Shown here piece after piece: positions 3,514-49,674 of a stretch of 64,000 bases of DNA. The notes under the pieces are model-generated. The model was not told where the DNA came from, did not search any database, and worked only from the letters and a program-made list of their open reading frames with translations. Position 1 is the first letter of the stretch; the number at the start of each line of letters is the position of its first letter. The translations under genes and the position numbers were made by a program. Source of the stretch: Escherichia phage p000v; the sequence record NC_055781.1; one strand, 5' to 3'.

Positions 3514-3758
3514 TTAGTTTAGACTCAAAGAAAGTTGTTCTAACCCTTAAAGTTAATGACGAGCGACTGGTATTCATTACCATTTCCGATTTACATGTTG
3601 AAATTGCTAATGGCGTCCGTACTTATCAAGCAAATAAAACTCATTGGGATTATATCCCGATGTTGACGCTTACTCAGCGTTTAGAATCAATCGGTCTTAA
3701 AGACCTTTCAGTAAGTGAAGTGAATTTTATCAAACGTGTCGTATCAATCAACCTCTGA
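3510..3758 (+). CDS. hypothetical protein
   Basis: 82-aa ORF, ATGA overlap with upstream gene. Confidence 0.4.
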   Translation: MISLDSKKVVLTLKVNDERLVFITISDLHVEIANGVRTYQANKTHWDYIPMLTLTQRLESIGLKDLSVSEVNFIKRVVSINL

Positions 3759-7199: not shown

Positions 7200-8219
7200 A
7201 TGAAAATTTTGCACTTAGGCGACTTCCATATCGGAGTCAAACAAGACGACCCATGGGTCCAAGATATTCAACGTGATGGTATTCGTCAAGCAATTGAATA
7301 CTCTAAGAAACACGGGATTAAAACTTGGATTCAGTACGGTGATTGGTTTGACGTCCGTAAAGCAATAACACATCGTACAATGGAATTCAATCGTGAAATC
7401 GTTGATATGATTTCTAAAGCAGGCATTCACGTTCATGTCACGATAGGAAACCATGACATGGCGTTTAAGAATACAATAACACCTAACACTGTTTCTGAAT
7501 TGTTAACTCAATTTGAAAACTTTACTATTTACGAACATCCAACTACTGTAGATTTTGACGGATGTCTGATTGATATCGTTCCGTGGATGTGTGAAGAAAA
7601 TACAGGTGAAATCTTAGAGCACATCAAGACTTCTTCTGCTGCGTATTGCGTTGGTCACTGGGAACTGAACGGCTTTTATTTCTATAAAGGAATGAAGTCT
7701 CATGGGCTTGAACCTGATTTCTTAAAGACCTATAAACAAGTCTGGTCTGGCCACTTCCACACAATCTCTGAAGCTGCTAACGTCAAATATATTGGGACAC
7801 CATGGACCCTTACTGCAGGTGACGAGAACGACCCACGTGGATTCTGGGTATTTGACACTGATGTTGAACGTATGGAATTTATTCCTAATGAAACAACATG
7901 GCATCGACGAATCACTTATCCATTTAAAGGCAAAATCAATTATTCTGATTATACTAATCTAGCCGTACGTGTTATAGTATCAGAAATTGATTCAGAGTTG
8001 ACTAAATTTGAATCTGAACTTGAAAAAGTAGTTCACTCTCTTCGTATGGTTTCTAAAGTTGATAACAGTGTTGAATCTGATGACGACCAGGAAATCGAGA
8101 TTAAATCACTTCAAGATATCATTAAAGAATATATTGACGCGATTCCAGATATCTCAGACGAAGACAGAGAAGCGCTGGTCAAATATTCCAACGAACTTTA
8201 TATTGAGGCAACACAATGA
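7200..8219 (+). CDS. 47: recombination endonuclease subunit gp47 (Mre11-like)
   Basis: 339 aa; phosphoesterase motifs LGDFH, GDWFD, GNHD. Confidence 0.9.
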   Translation: MKILHLGDFHIGVKQDDPWVQDIQRDGIRQAIEYSKKHGIKTWIQYGDWFDVRKAITHRTMEFNREIVDMISKAGIHVHVTIGNHDMAFKNTITPNTVSELLTQFENFTIYEHPTTVDFDGCLIDIVPWMCEENTGEILEHIKTSSAAYCVGHWELNGFYFYKGMKSHGLEPDFLKTYKQVWSGHFHTISEAANVKYIGTPWTLTAGDENDPRGFWVFDTDVERMEFIPNETTWHRRITYPFKGKINYSDYTNLAVRVIVSEIDSELTKFESELEKVVHSLRMVSKVDNSVESDDDQEIEIKSLQDIIKEYIDAIPDISDEDREALVKYSNELYIEATQ

Positions 8220-35337: not shown

Positions 35338-36647
35338 CATTTGATGATTTGACTGAAGGCCAGAAAAACGCCTTCAACGTTGTTATGAAAGCTATTAAAG
35401 AAAAGAAACATCACGTAACTATTAATGGGCCTGCTGGTACAGGTAAAACAACCCTTACTAGATTCATCGTTGAAGCCCTTATTTCTTCTGGAGAATCAGG
35501 TATTATTTTAGCAGCCCCTACACATGCTGCTAAAAAGGTTCTAAGCAAACTTGCAGGTCAAGAAGCATCGACTATTCATAGCATTCTTAAAATCAACCCA
35601 ACTACATACGAAGAAAACGTATTGTTTGAACAGAAAAAGGTTCCCGACTTAGCCTTGTGTCGTGTACTGTTATTTGATGAAGCATCAATGTGCGACCGTT
35701 CTCTGTTTAAAATAATGTTAGCTAGTATCCCTAAATGGTGTACAGTAATTGGAATCGGCGACAGATGCCAGATTCGTCCAGTGGACCCCGGCGAATCAAC
35801 TGCGTATCTAAGTCCTTTCTTCACTCACAAAGACTTCGTGCAATGCAACCTTACAGAAGTTAAACGTAGCAATGCACCAATTATTGATGTTGCGACTGAT
35901 ATTCGTAATGGCAAATGGATTTACGATAAAGTAGTTGATGGACACGGTGTTCATGGATATACAGACCTTAAATCGTATATGATGAACTATTTTAATGTCG
36001 TTAAAACTCCTGAAGACCTTTTCGAAAATCGAATGATGGCATTCACAAATAAGTCGGTTGACAAGTTGAATTCAATTATTCGCCGAAAACTTCTTGAAAC
36101 AGAAAAGCCATTTATTAAAGACGAAGTCATTGTTCTACAAGAGCCGTTTACCAAGACGTATAAGCTAGATGGCAAAAATATGACTGAAATGCTTTTCAAT
36201 AACGGGCAATTCGTTCGTATTCGAGATGCCGTAGAAACGTCTACATTCGTTAAAGCACGCGGTGTTTCAGGCGAATATATGATACGATACTGGAATCTTA
36301 CAGTAGAAACATATGGGGATGATGAAGAATACGTCCGCGAGGATATAAAGGTTATTTCTTCCGAAGAAGAGCTTTATAAATTCAATTTGTTTTTGGCTAA
36401 GACCGCAGAAACATACAAATTCTGGAATAAAGGTGGTAAAGCTCCATGGAGTGAATTCTGGGATGCTAAACGTATGTTCACTAAGGTGAAGGCACTACCA
36501 GTATCAACCTTCCATAAGGCCCAGGGTATGTCTGTTGACACGGCCTTTGTTTATACACCGTGTATCCATTATGCTGATTCAGAATTAGCTAAACAGTTAT
36601 TGTATGTCGGCACAACTCGTGGTCGTTTTGACGTCCATTTTATTTGA
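35334..36647 (+). CDS. dda: DNA helicase Dda (SF1)
   Basis: 437 aa; Walker A GPAGTGKTT, Walker B LFDEASM. Confidence 0.9.
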   Translation: MTFDDLTEGQKNAFNVVMKAIKEKKHHVTINGPAGTGKTTLTRFIVEALISSGESGIILAAPTHAAKKVLSKLAGQEASTIHSILKINPTTYEENVLFEQKKVPDLALCRVLLFDEASMCDRSLFKIMLASIPKWCTVIGIGDRCQIRPVDPGESTAYLSPFFTHKDFVQCNLTEVKRSNAPIIDVATDIRNGKWIYDKVVDGHGVHGYTDLKSYMMNYFNVVKTPEDLFENRMMAFTNKSVDKLNSIIRRKLLETEKPFIKDEVIVLQEPFTKTYKLDGKNMTEMLFNNGQFVRIRDAVETSTFVKARGVSGEYMIRYWNLTVETYGDDEEYVREDIKVISSEEELYKFNLFLAKTAETYKFWNKGGKAPWSEFWDAKRMFTKVKALPVSTFHKAQGMSVDTAFVYTPCIHYADSELAKQLLYVGTTRGRFDVHFI

Positions 36648-36656
36648 GAGAAAATT

Positions 36657-37334
36657 ATGAGCACTGATGTTATTATAGATTTTGAAACATTCGGCAATAC
36701 GTCAAAAGCTGCTGTTATTGACCTTGCGGTTATTGCATATAATTCAGACCCTGAAGTTGTTGAAACATTTGAAGAACTTGTTCAACGAGGTAAGCGAATT
36801 AAATTTAATTTAGCTTCTCAAAAAGGGAAGCGAGTTTTCGCTAAATCCACTATGAAATGGTGGAAAGAACAATCGGCTGAAGCACGTAAAAACCTGGCTC
36901 CGTCTGAAGACGATGTCACTACGCTTGAAGGCATTAAAATCTTTTTAGATTATTGTCGAGCTAATAAAGTTGACCAATGGAAATCACAGATGTGGTGCCG
37001 TGGTATGAGCTTTGACTTCCCGATCTTGGTCGATTTGATTCGTGACCTCTATCGTGATGAAGGTGTTCTTGAACCAGATATTGATACCGATAAATTAGAA
37101 CCTGTTAAATTCTGGGCTCAACGCGATATTCGTACGGCAATCGAAGCTTACTCGTTGACACGAGGATTAAGTATGTGTCCATTACCGATGGGTACGCTAA
37201 AAGGATTCGTTGCCCATGATAGTATTCATGATTGTGCTAAAGATATTTTGATGTTAAAATATGCTCAGCGTTATGCGCTTGGCCTTGAAGATGTCCCTGA
37301 GAATCCTGACCCGTTAAGTGTAAAACAGCGATAA
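36657..37334 (+). CDS. dexA: exonuclease A (DEDD family)
   Basis: 225 aa; N-terminal IIDFETFG; adjacent to dda as in T4. Confidence 0.8.
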   Translation: MSTDVIIDFETFGNTSKAAVIDLAVIAYNSDPEVVETFEELVQRGKRIKFNLASQKGKRVFAKSTMKWWKEQSAEARKNLAPSEDDVTTLEGIKIFLDYCRANKVDQWKSQMWCRGMSFDFPILVDLIRDLYRDEGVLEPDIDTDKLEPVKFWAQRDIRTAIEAYSLTRGLSMCPLPMGTLKGFVAHDSIHDCAKDILMLKYAQRYALGLEDVPENPDPLSVKQR

Positions 37335-37339
37335 AACCA

Positions 37340-37369
37340 GTTTACAACCAAGGATGGTTGGAGTATAAT
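37340..37369 (+). promoter_or_regulatory. early promoter (GTTTAC -18- TATAAT), duplicated at 37898
   Basis: GTTTACAACCAAGGATGGTTGGAGTATAAT. Confidence 0.5.
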
Positions 37370-37400
37370 CTTTCTATCTTAACCAAACAGGAAAAACATT

Positions 37401-37895
37401 ATGAATATCAATACTATGGCTACTTACATCCTGAAAGACGAAAAACAAATCAACTGGTACGGTGCTTCAGTGCGAGCTTATGAAAAGTTTTGTGAAATTT
37501 TAGGTGCCACTCAAGGTAATAGTTTCACTATTGTTAACTTCATCAAACAAGTTGAAGGCCCTTGGTTATTCTTAGAAATTAAAAATTCATATGGTACAAT
37601 TTCTACTACCGCCCTTCCAAGCACCGACTTTGAACTGTTGATTGAAGAAGCACCTGTTAAAGATGGTCTCCACTTTGATATGGATATCGCTTGTATGTAC
37701 GGTACTCTGATTAAGCCTATTGAGCCTACTGATTTGTTGTGTAAATATGTTTCAATTCGACGCCCATTCGTTGGTCCAGTAAATGGATGGGTAACTGACC
37801 AATGGATTGAAGACGGTGTTGAACTTCTGAACGTTGTTCATGCAGGTGATTTTAGTGTAGTTCCACGTAGTGCTGTGGTTAATATCCTTAATTAA
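37401..37895 (+). CDS. paralog family member A (hypothetical)
   Basis: 164 aa; C-terminal GWVTDQWIEDGVELLNVVHAGDFSVV shared with the two following genes. Confidence 0.5.
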   Translation: MNINTMATYILKDEKQINWYGASVRAYEKFCEILGATQGNSFTIVNFIKQVEGPWLFLEIKNSYGTISTTALPSTDFELLIEEAPVKDGLHFDMDIACMYGTLIKPIEPTDLLCKYVSIRRPFVGPVNGWVTDQWIEDGVELLNVVHAGDFSVVPRSAVVNILN

Positions 37896-37897
37896 TG

Positions 37898-37927
37898 TTG
37901 TACATCCAAGGATGGATGGAGTATAGC
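37898..37927 (+). promoter_or_regulatory. early promoter (TTGTAC -18- TATAGC), near-copy of the one at 37340
   Basis: TTGTACATCCAAGGATGGATGGAGTATAGC; 25 of 30 nt identical to the upstream copy. Confidence 0.45.
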
Positions 37928-37957
37928 GAATTCAATTTAAACAAAGAGAGAGAAATT

Positions 37958-38413
37958 ATGATTACTATTGGTGAAATTAAGCGTGTATCGTCTGCATCTC
38001 GTTCTAAAGCTGCAGGTCGTCTAGTTGAAGTTGTCGGACTTCGTACTAATGGTACTGGTCGTGTTAAAGAAGTTAAAGTTCGAATCATTCCTAGTTCTGG
38101 AAAAAGTGAAACTCAGTACGCTTACGTAAGTCCTAAATTCTTGGAAACTCATGTGAGCGCTCATTTTGCTTCTACTGAACCTAATGTACAGTTCAAATGG
38201 GCCCTTTGCAAAGGCGTTGAATTCCAGACTGATAAAGAATTTGATTTCATCGACGAATATGGTTATCCAAGCAAAACTGATATCATGTGTGGCTTCATTA
38301 GTGACCAATGGGTTGAAGATGGTGAAAAGTTATACAATATCGTATTCTTAGGTGACTTCCGAGTTGTTAAAGAATCTGAAATCACTCGCTATGTATCTCC
38401 TCGTAAAGCTTAA
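37958..38413 (+). CDS. paralog family member B (hypothetical)
   Basis: 151 aa from ATG at 37958; ASRSKAAGRLVEV and GFISDQWVEDGEKLYNIVFLGDFRVV shared with member C. Confidence 0.5.
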   Translation: MITIGEIKRVSSASRSKAAGRLVEVVGLRTNGTGRVKEVKVRIIPSSGKSETQYAYVSPKFLETHVSAHFASTEPNVQFKWALCKGVEFQTDKEFDFIDEYGYPSKTDIMCGFISDQWVEDGEKLYNIVFLGDFRVVKESEITRYVSPRKA

Positions 38414-38422
38414 GGAATTATT

Positions 38423-38842
38423 ATGAATATTGCAAATCTCTCTATTGGTGATTATGTACACGTATCAGATGCTTCTCGCTCTAAAGTTGCTGGGAAGTTG
38501 GTTGAAGTTCTTTATGTAAGTGATCCGGTTTTTGGACGTAACGAAGTTAAAGTTCGTGACGCCGATGGCAACATTGGTTACGTTAAAAGCCAATTCATTG
38601 AACCAGAAGAAAAAGCGTTCAAATGGGGACTATGCAGATCAGTTTCTGTTGAAAAAGACCATGAATTCACTATTGCTGCGGCAACTGATGGGACACCGTG
38701 GAAAACTAAGCAAATCGCTGGATTTATTAGCGACCGTTGGGTAGAAGATGGTGTTAAGCTTTATAACATCGTTTTCGCTGGACAGTTCATGGTAGTTCCT
38801 GAATTCCAAATTAAAAAATATAGCCCAGCTGCTTTCGCATAA
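38423..38842 (+). CDS. paralog family member C (hypothetical)
   Basis: 139 aa; ASRSKVAGKLVEV and GFISDRWVEDGVKLYNIVFAGQFMVV. Confidence 0.5.
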   Translation: MNIANLSIGDYVHVSDASRSKVAGKLVEVLYVSDPVFGRNEVKVRDADGNIGYVKSQFIEPEEKAFKWGLCRSVSVEKDHEFTIAAATDGTPWKTKQIAGFISDRWVEDGVKLYNIVFAGQFMVVPEFQIKKYSPAAFA

Positions 38843-38846
38843 AGTT

Positions 38847-38875
38847 GTTTACTTCTCCTCTGGTTTTGATATTAT
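38847..38875 (+). promoter_or_regulatory. early promoter (GTTTAC -17- TATTAT)
   Basis: upstream of ORF 38902. Confidence 0.45.
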
Positions 38876-38901
38876 AACCATATCAACCAGAGGAGAATAA
38901 T

Positions 38902-39426
38902 ATGTTAGTTTACCGCGTAGAACGTAGTTTTTGTACTCAACGTGAATCATTACCAGGAGTTGCTATCGAAGACGGTAAAGCCGTCAGAATTTGGGAAACC
39001 TCCTGGAATAAAGAACCTCGTTCGCCATACGGTTGGTCGGGCACCGACAACTCTGAAGAAACATGGGAGTTCCTTGATAAGCATGGAATACTCTCAGGTA
39101 ACTTCTACCATCACGGCGACAACTATAATGTACCTAATCGTCCTACAGTAAATGAAGACAAACTCCTTGAACAAAATATCTTAAGATACTATAGAATTGA
39201 GCACACATTTGAATTGAACGAAGATTGGGCTCAAGGGTTCTATTTTGGATTTGAAAGCGTTGACGCGGTTTATGCATGGTTTGATGACCAGGTGGATGTT
39301 GAACTCTTGAAAGCTAAAGGATACTACATCGCGGTCTATGAAGCACCTGATTTCATCCTCGGAAGTTGTCAATTAATGTTTAGACGTTCATTGGCAGAAC
39401 AAGTTGATTTTATTTTGCTAAAATGA
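38902..39426 (+). CDS. hypothetical protein
   Basis: 174-aa ORF with GAGGAGAATAAT RBS. Confidence 0.45.
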   Translation: MLVYRVERSFCTQRESLPGVAIEDGKAVRIWETSWNKEPRSPYGWSGTDNSEETWEFLDKHGILSGNFYHHGDNYNVPNRPTVNEDKLLEQNILRYYRIEHTFELNEDWAQGFYFGFESVDAVYAWFDDQVDVELLKAKGYYIAVYEAPDFILGSCQLMFRRSLAEQVDFILLK

Positions 39427-39460
39427 TGTACAACAACTATGGTCTATGATACTATAGACC
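39425..39460 (+). promoter_or_regulatory. early promoter with -10 in hairpin (GGTCTAT-gatact-ATAGACC)
   Basis: TACTAT -10 overlapping a 7-bp inverted repeat. Confidence 0.4.
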
Positions 39461-39483
39461 TATCAAAACAAGAGGAGAATATT

Positions 39484-39711
39484 ATGAAACGACAAATCAT
39501 TAAAAACGTAACTACTGATTCAAACATCGATGAGTTTGAAGATGTTCTGTTTAATCCTGATTTAGTTGTTGTACAGAAAAACTGGACCGGATTTTTATGC
39601 TACACCGAAGTGGTTTACGTTTACGAAAAACTCGGTGATGAAATGCCTATCTACGGTATCTTCCGTGAAATCACTGAAAACGGTACAACTTATTGGAAGG
39701 AAACTTACTAA
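39484..39711 (+). CDS. hypothetical protein
   Basis: 75 aa from ATG with GAGGAGAATATT RBS. Confidence 0.4.
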
Positions 39712-49637: not shown

Positions 49638-49674
49638 TTGTACAAACTCTTGAGAGCAGAGTATAATGCTCTCA
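49638..49674 (+). promoter_or_regulatory. promoter module, copy 2: TTGTAC -18- TATAAT inside GAGAGC/GCTCTC inverted repeat
   Basis: about 30 nt identical to 4697..4728; upstream of ndd. Confidence 0.45.

What the first reader, a model, noticed from the sequence alone, without database searches (positions are those of the whole stretch)
37340..38842. Tandem triplicated gene family with duplicated promoters
Three consecutive ORFs share a C-terminal motif G(W/F)(V/I)(T/S)D(Q/R)W(I/V)EDG...L(L/Y)N(V/I)V...G(D/Q)F.VV; members B and C also share ASRSK(A/V)AG(R/K)LVEV. Members A and B are each preceded by nearly identical early promoters (25 of 30 nt identical), so the duplication included the promoter. 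Function is unknown; a diversifying host-interaction or anti-defence family is possible.
Basis: seen in the sequence. Interest (0 to 1): 0.55.

Follow-up and report, generated by a model that had tools for sequence, protein, structure and literature searches.

The report
Known MotB/MotB.1 early-gene cluster of RB69-like phage
The three genes are the already described motB.1, motB and second motB copy of an RB69-like T4-type phage (early proteins, of which MotB is a DNA-coating protein that counteracts the host silencer H-NS), so the finding is real but ordinary.

Summary

- **Where it sits:** the window is an RB69-like Mosigvirus (96-97% identical to RB69). The three ORFs lie between dexA and motB.2.
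- **The genes:** A is motB.1. B is motB (Pfam PF17613, 9e-39). C is RB69ORF010c, annotated "similar to motB" since 2003.
- **Relatedness:** B and C are full-length paralogues (44% identity, E 9e-33). A shares only its last ~37 residues with them (hhalign 98%); the N-terminal domains are unrelated.
- **Prior work:** Patterson-West et al. 2021 described this, including RB69's two motB copies.
- **Promoters:** the repeat is real (23/25 core, 50/66 through the ATG, only two copies in 64 kb). It does not mark a gene-plus-promoter duplication. The two units are direct repeats flanking motB.1, and natural relatives lacking motB.1 carry one hybrid unit (A-type promoter, B-type leader). This points to recombination between repeated promoter cassettes.
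- **Selection:** dN/dS is 0.05-0.35, so there is no gene-wide diversifying selection.
- **Structure:** models suggest tandem Tudor/KOW-like barrels.

Side observation: the T4 reference record carries a one-base frameshift that truncates MotB.1.

The parts
37340..37369 (+). P_A, a sigma-70-type early promoter upstream of motB.1 (GTTTACA N17 TATAAT), followed by its leader to the ATG at 37401
   Evidence: It matches 11 of 12 consensus positions. The same site is annotated as a promoter in the related phage SA79RD. It is identical in RB69 and SSE1.
37401..37895 (+). Gene A = motB.1 (164 aa, pI 4.65). It has an N-terminal beta-barrel domain unrelated to MotB, plus a short MotB-type C-terminal module (residues about 109-164).
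   Evidence: It matches phrog_2333 at 3e-80 over its full length, and Pfam motB at 1e-8 over residues 88-159 only. Its homologues are annotated motB.1. hhalign homology to MotB is limited to residues 125-160. The AF2 model has mean pLDDT 65.7 and a disordered linker at 86-109.
37897..37927 (+). P_B, a degenerate copy of P_A upstream of motB (GTTGTACA...TATAGC), followed by a leader to the ATG at 37958. It occupies the same position as the T4 motB early promoter.
   Evidence: The direct repeat is 23/25 identical. It aligns with the T4 motB promoter immediately after the motB.1 stop codon. The -10 varies among relatives.
37958..38413 (+). Gene B = motB (151 aa, pI 8.5, N-terminal domain pI 10.7), orthologue of T4 MotB
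   Evidence: It matches Pfam PF17613 at 9e-39 and phrog_1671 at 2e-64. It is annotated motB in RB69. tblastn gives 48-49% identity to T4 records. The 21-codon upstream extension from ATG 37895 is closed by a stop codon in RB69.
38423..38842 (+). Gene C = second motB copy (RB69ORF010c type, 139 aa, pI 6.1). It starts 9 nt after the motB stop codon and has no promoter of its own.
   Evidence: It matches Pfam PF17613 at 9e-23 and is 44% identical to B. It is annotated 'similar to motB' in RB69. Orthologues are 82-94% identical. The AF2 model has pLDDT 86.5 and two small beta-barrels.
38847..38897 (+). P_D, the downstream boundary of the unit: an early promoter-like site with a 13-bp perfect hairpin (38853-38865 / 38885-38897). 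The hairpin holds the -10 in its loop and the motB.2 Shine-Dalgarno sequence in its 3' arm.
   Evidence: Promoter scan. Inverted repeat I7. The RNA fold is -23.9 kcal/mol with z = -5.7. The same hairpin is annotated as a terminator in SA79RD.

Best explanation
**What it is (shown).** The locus is the motB.1 - motB - motB' segment of the early, dispensable dda-to-gene-39 region of an RB69-like Mosigvirus.
- B is the MotB orthologue.
- C is a tandem full-length paralogue of B. It sits 9 nt downstream of B with no promoter between them, so co-transcription with B is inferred.
- A is MotB.1, a different protein that carries only the short MotB-type C-terminal module.

**How it works (inferred by homology to T4 MotB; not tested for this phage).** B is made immediately after infection and binds DNA without sequence specificity. 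The charge distribution suggests it does so through its very basic KOW-like N-terminal barrel. Binding remodels H-NS-DNA complexes and modestly raises burst size.

**C and A (inferred).**
- C is kept under purifying selection but has lost most of the positive charge of the N-terminal domain. It is therefore probably a sub-functionalised partner rather than a redundant copy.
- A is acidic and unlikely to bind DNA non-specifically. Its shared C-terminal barrel probably serves as a common interaction module.

**The promoter repeat.**
- Shown: the two promoter-leader units are direct repeats flanking motB.1, and relatives without motB.1 have one hybrid unit.
- Inferred: homologous recombination between repeated early-promoter cassettes inserts or removes motB.1. 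This is the modular-shuffling mechanism described for T4-type phages.
For: **Identity**
- 96-97% DNA identity to RB69 and other Mosigvirus phages, with the same gene order.
- Pfam and PHROG matches.

**Paralogy**
- BLASTP and hhalign.

**Already published**
- MotB and MotB.1 share a C-terminal domain but have different N-terminal domains. RB69 has two motB, one motB.1 and a 29-aa peptide (PMC7827196).

**Function of T4 MotB**
- It is toxic, binds DNA non-specifically, co-purifies with H-NS and StpA, and gives a two-fold burst effect (PMC6070864).
- It alters H-NS footprints and up-regulates H-NS-repressed genes (PMC7827196).

**Charge**
- B N-terminal domain pI 10.7; shared C-terminal module pI about 4.7-4.9; A pI 4.65; C pI 6.1.

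**Selection**
- dN/dS is 0.14-0.35 for B (one outlying pair, RB3 vs PP01, at 0.67), 0.09-0.24 for C (0 to 0.03 in near-identical pairs) and 0.05 for A.

**Cassette recombination**
- JK45, AV114 and S143_2 lack motB.1. Their dexA-motB spacer equals P_A up to the -10 and the P_B leader after it.
- 132 records carry the window-type junction, and several carry the deleted form.
- The mechanism is described in PMC2839356 and PMC4122927.

**Structure**
Against: - No experiment exists for the Mosigvirus B, C or A proteins.
- B is only about 48% identical to T4 MotB, so transfer of function is an inference.
- T4 motB.1 deletion had no phenotype, and no RNA effect was found (PMC12152347).
- P_A and P_B lack the stem-loop that defines classical PeSL cassettes (z = -0.04 and -1.6).
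- The direction of the event (insertion or deletion of motB.1) was not resolved.
- The published domain assignment for the C-terminal domain is an OB-fold from HHpred. My fold searches point to SH3/Tudor-like barrels instead, but I could not search the domains separately.
- The A model is of low confidence (pLDDT 65.7).
Confidence: 0.85

Rival explanations
1. One ancestral gene with its promoter was triplicated in tandem, and the copies are diversifying under host-interaction or anti-defence selection.
For: - All three share a C-terminal motif.
- The A and B upstream regions are homologous.
- B and C evolve faster than their neighbours: dN is 0.03-0.15 against 0.002-0.014 for dexA and motB.2.
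- Copy number varies among relatives: T4 has one motB; RB69, RB3 and PP01 have two.
Against: - The A and B N-terminal domains show no detectable homology (hhalign probability 0.3%).
- Gene-wide dN/dS stays below 0.7, and is mostly 0.1-0.35. dS is also raised 3-5 fold, which points to exchange of old alleles rather than positive selection.
- There are no PADLOC matches.
- The hybrid promoter in motB.1-less phages fits cassette recombination better than gene duplication.
Confidence: 0.1
2. The similarity of P_A and P_B is convergence on the strongly constrained T4-type early promoter consensus, not common descent or recombination.
For: - Early promoters in this window are all alike (mean 17.7 of 31 identical).
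- Two unrelated pairs are as similar as, or more similar than, A/B (25 and 27 of 31).
Against: - The identity lies mostly in the spacer, which the consensus does not constrain.
- It continues through the 5' leader to the ATG (shuffle p = 0.0004).
- The 25-mer occurs only twice in 64 kb.
- Natural hybrids of the two units exist.
Confidence: 0.05
3. The shared C-terminal barrel is not a DNA-binding OB-fold. It is a protein-docking module (Tudor/KOW-like) that brings different N-terminal domains to one common partner, such as RNA polymerase, H-NS/StpA filaments or another MotB-family protein.
For: - The module is acidic (pI 4.7-4.9), while the DNA-binding charge sits in the MotB N-terminal domain.
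- The same module is fused to at least four kinds of N-terminal region: LSm-like, KOW-like, and the 180-aa and 248-aa types.
- It is 74-88% identical across these architectures.
- Fold matches include Tudor, NusG/Spt5 KOW and the RapA N-terminal domain.
- The MotB literature reports MotB in a prereplicative complex that contains RNAP (PMC6070864).
Against: - There is no interaction data.
- The fold matches are generic for small beta-barrels, which also bind nucleic acids.
- The published HHpred analysis assigns a cold-shock-type OB-fold (PMC7827196).
- The C-terminal domain of C is mildly basic (pI 8.1).
Confidence: 0.25

Closest known systems
T4 MotB (gene motB, Pfam PF17613, phrog_1671)
   Same: B and C have the same two-domain layout as T4 MotB. 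They share the N-terminal SRSKAAGKLVEV motif and the C-terminal DQWVEDGVKLYN(I/V)VF motif. The genes are early and lie between dexA and cef.
   Different: B is about 48% identical to T4 MotB, and C is 36-40% identical to T4-type MotB clusters. This phage has two copies in tandem, whereas T4 has one. C is 23 residues shorter and much less basic than T4 MotB (pI 6.1 against 9.2).
T4 MotB.1 (phrog_2333; 'Category 2' of Patterson-West et al. 2021; LSm-like fold family of Kim et al. 2025)
   Same: A matches the family over its full length (3e-80). It is 46% identical to the intact 143-aa T4 protein and has an almost identical C-terminal module.
   Different: A has a 21-residue insertion in the linker. 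It also has its own promoter and follows dexA directly. In T4, motB.1 follows motB.2 without a promoter.
RB69 motB.1 / motB / RB69ORF010c (GenBank AY303349, 2003)
   Same: The genes, their order and the promoters are the same, at 96% DNA identity.
   Different: In the RB69 record, two extra bases split motB.1 into a 132-aa ORF and the 29-aa RB69ORF012c. The window and most relatives have one intact 164-aa ORF.
PeSL promoter-early stem-loop cassettes of T4-type phages (Arbiol et al. 2010; Comeau et al. 2014)
   Same: Repeated early promoters flank a dispensable gene whose presence differs between close relatives, and the junction lies inside the repeat. The neighbouring P_D has the full promoter-plus-hairpin form.
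   Different: P_A and P_B have no significant stem-loop. The repeat includes the 5' leader.
Tandem Tudor / tandem KOW domains (53BP1, UHRF1, Spt5 KOW6-7, NusG KOW)
   Different: Sequence identity is 10-19%. TM-scores are only 0.38-0.45 because the domain orientation differs. This is a structural analogy only and does not establish membership.

Membership tests
MotB family (Pfam PF17613) | Sequence match to the family profile above the curated threshold (25 bits) | tested here: met
   A scores 35.7 bits (C-terminal part only), B 133.3 bits and C 81.4 bits.
MotB family (Pfam PF17613) | Full two-domain architecture: a KOW-like N-terminal domain with the SRSKAAGKLVEV motif, plus the C-terminal WVEDG...YNxVF domain | tested here: met
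   Met for B and C. Not met for A, whose N-terminal domain is unrelated (hhalign probability 0.3%). A is therefore filed as MotB.1, not MotB.
MotB family (Pfam PF17613) | Early gene in the dexA-cef interval of a Tevenvirinae genome | tested here: met
   The gene order dda-dexA-motB.1-motB-motB'-motB.2-cef is the same as in RB69. A sigma-70-type promoter lies upstream. The timing of expression was not measured.
MotB family (Pfam PF17613) | Non-specific DNA binding, co-purification with H-NS/StpA, and toxicity in E. coli | not testable with these tools
   Known only for T4 MotB (PMC6070864, PMC7827196).
MotB.1 (phrog_2333) | Full-length match to the family | tested here: met
   E 3.1e-80, residues 1-164. 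Homologues of 143-169 aa align end to end.
MotB.1 (phrog_2333) | LSm-like five-stranded N-terminal barrel (Kim et al. 2025) | tested here: inconclusive
PeSL promoter-early stem-loop cassette | Early promoter of the type TTTACW N17 TAYWAT | tested here: met
   P_A is TTTACA N17 TATAAT. P_B deviates in this phage (TGTACA, TATAGC).
PeSL promoter-early stem-loop cassette | Adjacent conserved stem-loop | tested here: not met
   P_A has z = -0.04 and P_B has z = -1.6. Only the neighbouring P_D has a hairpin (z = -5.7).
PeSL promoter-early stem-loop cassette | Marks the boundaries of gene insertion or deletion between close relatives | tested here: met
   motB.1 is present in the window, RB69 and SSE1 and absent in JK45, AV114 and S143_2. 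The junction lies inside the repeat.
OB-fold (cold-shock type) C-terminal domain, as proposed for MotB | Structural similarity of the C-terminal domain to OB-fold proteins | tested here: inconclusive

The most novel reading that the evidence does not exclude
The short acidic C-terminal barrel shared by MotB, the second MotB copy, MotB.1 and the 180-aa and 248-aa relatives may be a common docking or oligomerisation module. It would deliver different N-terminal effector domains (a basic KOW-like DNA binder, an LSm-like barrel, and others) to one shared target on the host nucleoid or RNA polymerase. On this reading the three adjacent genes form one functional set rather than redundant copies. Published assays with the 119-aa T4 MotB.1 would then have tested a protein that lacks this module.
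Probability: 0.2. Interest if true: 0.45.

Novelty: already known. Interest (0 to 1): 0.15.

Why it matters
As a discovery it matters little. The genes have been annotated since the RB69 genome of 2003. The family relationship, including RB69's extra motB copy and the shared C-terminal domain of MotB.1, was published in 2021.

Three small points may be useful to people who work on T4 early genes:
1. The promoter-leader repeats flanking motB.1, together with the matching hybrid junction in natural motB.1-less phages, give a clean example of promoter-mediated cassette gain or loss.
2. Both domains of the MotB paralogue are predicted to be Tudor/KOW-like barrels, rather than a KOW domain plus an OB-fold.
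3. The T4 reference sequence (NC_000866.4) has an extra G that truncates MotB.1 within the conserved module, whereas 13 other listed records of T4 and near-identical phages encode an intact 143-aa protein. The 2025 functional study synthesised its constructs from that reference.

Tried and rejected
- **Whole-gene homology of A with B/C:** profile-profile comparison of the N-terminal domains gave probability 0.3%, so I rejected it.
- **Defence or anti-defence family:** PADLOC gave no match.
- **Hidden RNA gene:** Rfam gave only a sub-threshold Y_RNA hit inside gene A (26.6 bits against 38; E 0.029). I treat it as chance.
- **Solved structure of a relative:** a profile search of PDB sequences found nothing (best E 0.16).
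- **PeSL-type hairpins at P_A and P_B:** not significant.
- **The 21-codon upstream extension of B from ATG 37895:** rejected. It overlaps P_B, has no Shine-Dalgarno sequence and is closed by a stop codon in RB69.
- **The identical 11-mer ATTATGAATAT at the starts of A and C:** too short to be meaningful in an AT-rich 1.6-kb region.
- **Two long repeat proteins in the exhaustive profile search (P0184, P0185):** of the two weak, multi-stretch matches, the one whose sequence I read (P0184) is a repeat protein and I judge the match spurious; I did not read the P0185 sequence.
- **Son et al. 2021 (NAR, DNA compaction by MotB):** the paper is not held in the library. I know it only through a citation.

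Full report
**Observation**

The region holds three consecutive + strand ORFs:
- A, 37401-37895, 164 aa.
- B, 151 aa from ATG 37958 to 38413. The mechanical ORF list starts it at 37895.
- C, 38423-38842, 139 aa.

B and C also share the N-terminal ASRSK(A/V)AG(R/K)LVEV motif. The similarities are far beyond chance:
- BLASTP gives A-B 3e-10, A-C 8e-11 and B-C 9e-33 at 44% identity over 145 residues.
- All three pass the curated threshold of Pfam PF17613 'motB'.

The promoter repeat is also real:
- 37343-37367 and 37901-37925 are 23/25 identical.
- They are the only two matches to that 25-mer within 3 mismatches in the 64-kb window, with none expected by chance.
- With one gap, the similarity runs from the -35 element through the 5' leader to the ATG: 50 of 66 columns are identical, and the leader alone has shuffle p = 0.0004.

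**Identity**

The window is an RB69-like T4-type phage.
- The stretch 36600-39500 is 96-97% identical to RB69, mobillu, ATK47 and about 150 other records.
- In the RB69 GenBank record the genes are, in order, dda, dexA, motB.1, RB69ORF012c, motB, RB69ORF010c ('similar to motB'), motB.2 and cef.
- So A is motB.1, B is motB and C is RB69ORF010c.
- PHROGs agrees. A is phrog_2333 (3e-80, function unknown). B and C are phrog_1671, 'MotB-like transcriptional regulator'.

**What is already published**

- Patterson-West et al. 2021 (PMC7827196) report that MotB and MotB.1 share a conserved C-terminal domain but have different N-terminal domains. They suggest that one gene may have arisen from the other. 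They also note that RB69 has two motB copies, one motB.1 and a 29-aa peptide matching the core C-terminal motif.
- Patterson-West et al. 2018 (PMC6070864) show that T4 MotB is an early protein. It is toxic in E. coli, binds DNA without sequence specificity, co-purifies with H-NS and StpA, and doubles burst size.
- The 2021 paper shows that MotB alters H-NS footprints and up-regulates H-NS-repressed host genes.
- Kim et al. 2025 (PMC12152347) predict an LSm-like N-terminal barrel in MotB.1. They found no phenotype for a motB.1 deletion.

The finding is therefore an independent rediscovery of a known family.

**How far the 'triplication' goes**

- Profile-profile comparison of a MotB.1 alignment (16 sequences) with a MotB alignment (19 sequences) finds homology only over the last 36-37 residues (probability 98%, E about 1e-14). 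The N-terminal domains give probability 0.3%.
- B and C are thus true tandem paralogues. A shares only a module with them.
- The database searches show that this module is combined with several N-terminal regions:
  - the MotB.1 type;
  - a KOW-like MotB type (for example P0060, P0074, P0171, P0174);
  - the 180-aa and 248-aa types.
- An exhaustive profile search of 1.84 billion representatives finds only 28 clusters. Apart from two weak repeat-protein matches, they are small proteins with the module at the C-terminus.

**The promoters**

- P_A is a near-consensus sigma-70-type promoter (11 of 12). It is annotated as a promoter in a related record.
- P_B lies immediately after the motB.1 stop codon, where T4 has its motB early promoter. 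In this phage it is degenerate: an extra base in the -35 region, and a -10 of TATAGC. SSE1 has TATAAT and RB69 has TATAAA.
- High similarity between early promoters is not unique to this pair. Of 78 pairs among 13 early-promoter-like sites in the window, two other pairs score 25 and 27 of 31, against 25 for A/B (mean 17.7, sd 3.2).
- The comparison with relatives is the informative part.
  - JK45, AV114 and S143_2 lack motB.1, and motB follows dexA directly.
  - Their single intergenic unit is identical to P_A from dexA through the -10, and matches the P_B leader from there to the motB ATG.
  - So the two units are direct repeats flanking motB.1, and the natural junction lies inside the repeat.
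- This is what homologous recombination between repeated early-promoter cassettes would produce. The mechanism was proposed for T4-type phages by Arbiol et al. 2010 and Comeau et al. 2014.
- I could not tell whether motB.1 was inserted or deleted.
- P_A and P_B lack the hairpin of classical PeSLs.
- 132 phage records have the window-type dexA-P_A-motB.1 junction. JK45, JK42, phi25-307 and RPN187 are among those with the short form.
- Gene order also differs between genera. Tequatroviruses have dexA-motB.2-motB.1-motB. Mosigviruses have dexA-motB.1-motB-motB'-motB.2. The B-type/C-type pair also occurs in the tequatroviruses RB3 and PP01.

**Selection**

Pairwise Nei-Gojobori estimates over six to eight phages give the dN/dS values below.

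| Gene | dN/dS |
|---|---|
| B | 0.14-0.35 (one outlying pair, RB3 vs PP01: 0.67) |
| C | 0.09-0.24 (0 to 0.03 in near-identical pairs) |
| A | 0.05 (one pair) |
| dexA | 0 to 0.07 |
| motB.2 | 0.03-0.16 |

- All the genes are under purifying selection.
- B and C have both dN and dS raised several-fold over their flanks. This fits exchange of older alleles, and chimeric proteins support it: P0147, P0149 and P0151 combine a B-type or T4-type N-terminus with a C-type C-terminus.
- There is no gene-wide sign of diversifying selection. Site-specific tests were not run.

**Structure and mechanism**

- The AF2 model of C is confident (pLDDT 86.5, pTM 0.75). It shows two small five-stranded barrels.
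- Foldseek aligns about 125 of its 139 residues to the 53BP1 tandem Tudor domains (E 5e-4). UHRF1 tandem Tudor, Spt5 KOW6-7 and the RapA N-terminal domain follow.
- The A model is weaker (pLDDT 65.7) but gives the same kind of matches.
- No OB-fold or cold-shock protein appears among the top matches. The published KOW + OB-fold assignment may therefore need revision to two SH3-like barrels. I could not search the domains separately.
- Charge is informative:
  - the B N-terminal domain has pI 10.7;
  - the shared C-terminal module has pI 4.7-4.9 in A and B;
  - A as a whole has pI 4.65;
  - C has pI 6.1.
- From this I infer three things:
  - DNA binding by MotB resides mainly in the N-terminal barrel.
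  - The shared module is more likely an interaction surface.
  - C has diverged in function from B.
- None of this was tested.

**Verdict**

The feature is already known, so interest is low.

Noticed in passing
L002 about 2305-2306 (NC_000866.4 about 7304-7305), compared with L009 and L010: The T4 reference sequence has an extra G (ATTGGAAG instead of ATTGAAG) in motB.1. The annotated protein therefore ends ...GWVTDQWIGRWR* at 119 aa, and the conserved tail EDGVELLNVVHAGEYSVVPRSAVVAILN sits intact in the next frame. Thirteen other listed records of T4 and near-identical phages (including T4T, RB55 and RB59) encode an intact 143-aa protein in one tblastn piece. Kim et al. 2025 synthesised their MotB.1 constructs (13.8 kDa) from NC_000866.4.
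   Followed up: yes
L001 about 3664-3671 and about 3718-3719 (RB69 AY303349): The RB69 record has two extra T bases in motB.1 relative to the window. These split the gene into a 132-aa 'motB.1' and the 29-aa RB69ORF012c. That peptide is the 'Category 3' entry of Patterson-West et al. 2021. The window, SSE1 and the clusters P0001 and P0002 have one intact 164-aa ORF.
   Followed up: partly
window 38847-38904: The promoter-like site before motB.2 carries a perfect 13-bp hairpin (38853-38865 / 38885-38897; -23.9 kcal/mol; z = -5.7). The -10 lies in the loop and the motB.2 Shine-Dalgarno sequence GAGGAG lies in the 3' arm. Read-through transcripts would therefore hide the ribosome site, while transcripts starting inside the loop would not. 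A related record annotates the hairpin as a terminator.
   Followed up: partly
window 37895-37957: An in-frame ATG overlapping the motB.1 stop codon (TAATG) extends motB by 21 codons across P_B. Some records (SA79RD) and gene calls (P0147, P0151) use it. In RB69 a stop codon closes the extension, so it is probably a mis-annotation.
   Followed up: partly
proteins P0147, P0149, P0151 (metagenomic contigs): These are chimeric MotB proteins. They combine a B-type or T4-type N-terminal part with a C-type C-terminal part, as if produced by recombination between the tandem paralogues or between alleles.
   Followed up: no
proteins P0060, P0074, P0171, P0174, P0175, P0179, P0181, P0182: These proteins combine the MotB-like KOW-type N-terminus (VS..S.SK.AG) with the MotB.1-type C-terminal module (DPTDLLC...GWVTDQWIEDGVELLNVVH). 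This may be the commoner architecture in more distant T4-like phages.
   Followed up: no
window 48865 / 49377, 26666 / 38848, and 49639: Other early-promoter-like sites in the window also form near-identical pairs (27/31 and 25/31). The site at 49639 (TGTACAAACTCTTGAGAGCAGAGTATAATGCTCTCA) closely resembles the T4 motB promoter with its hairpin.
   Followed up: no
window 37958-38842 compared with L001 and L003-L008: Synonymous divergence of motB and its second copy (dS 0.13-0.68) is several times that of the flanking dexA and motB.2 genes (0.05-0.15) in the same phage pairs. This indicates mosaic allele exchange confined to these two genes.
   Followed up: partly
window 37550-37640: There is a sub-threshold Rfam match to Y_RNA (26.6 bits against a gathering score of 38; E 0.029) inside the motB.1 coding sequence. 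I treat it as chance.
   Followed up: no
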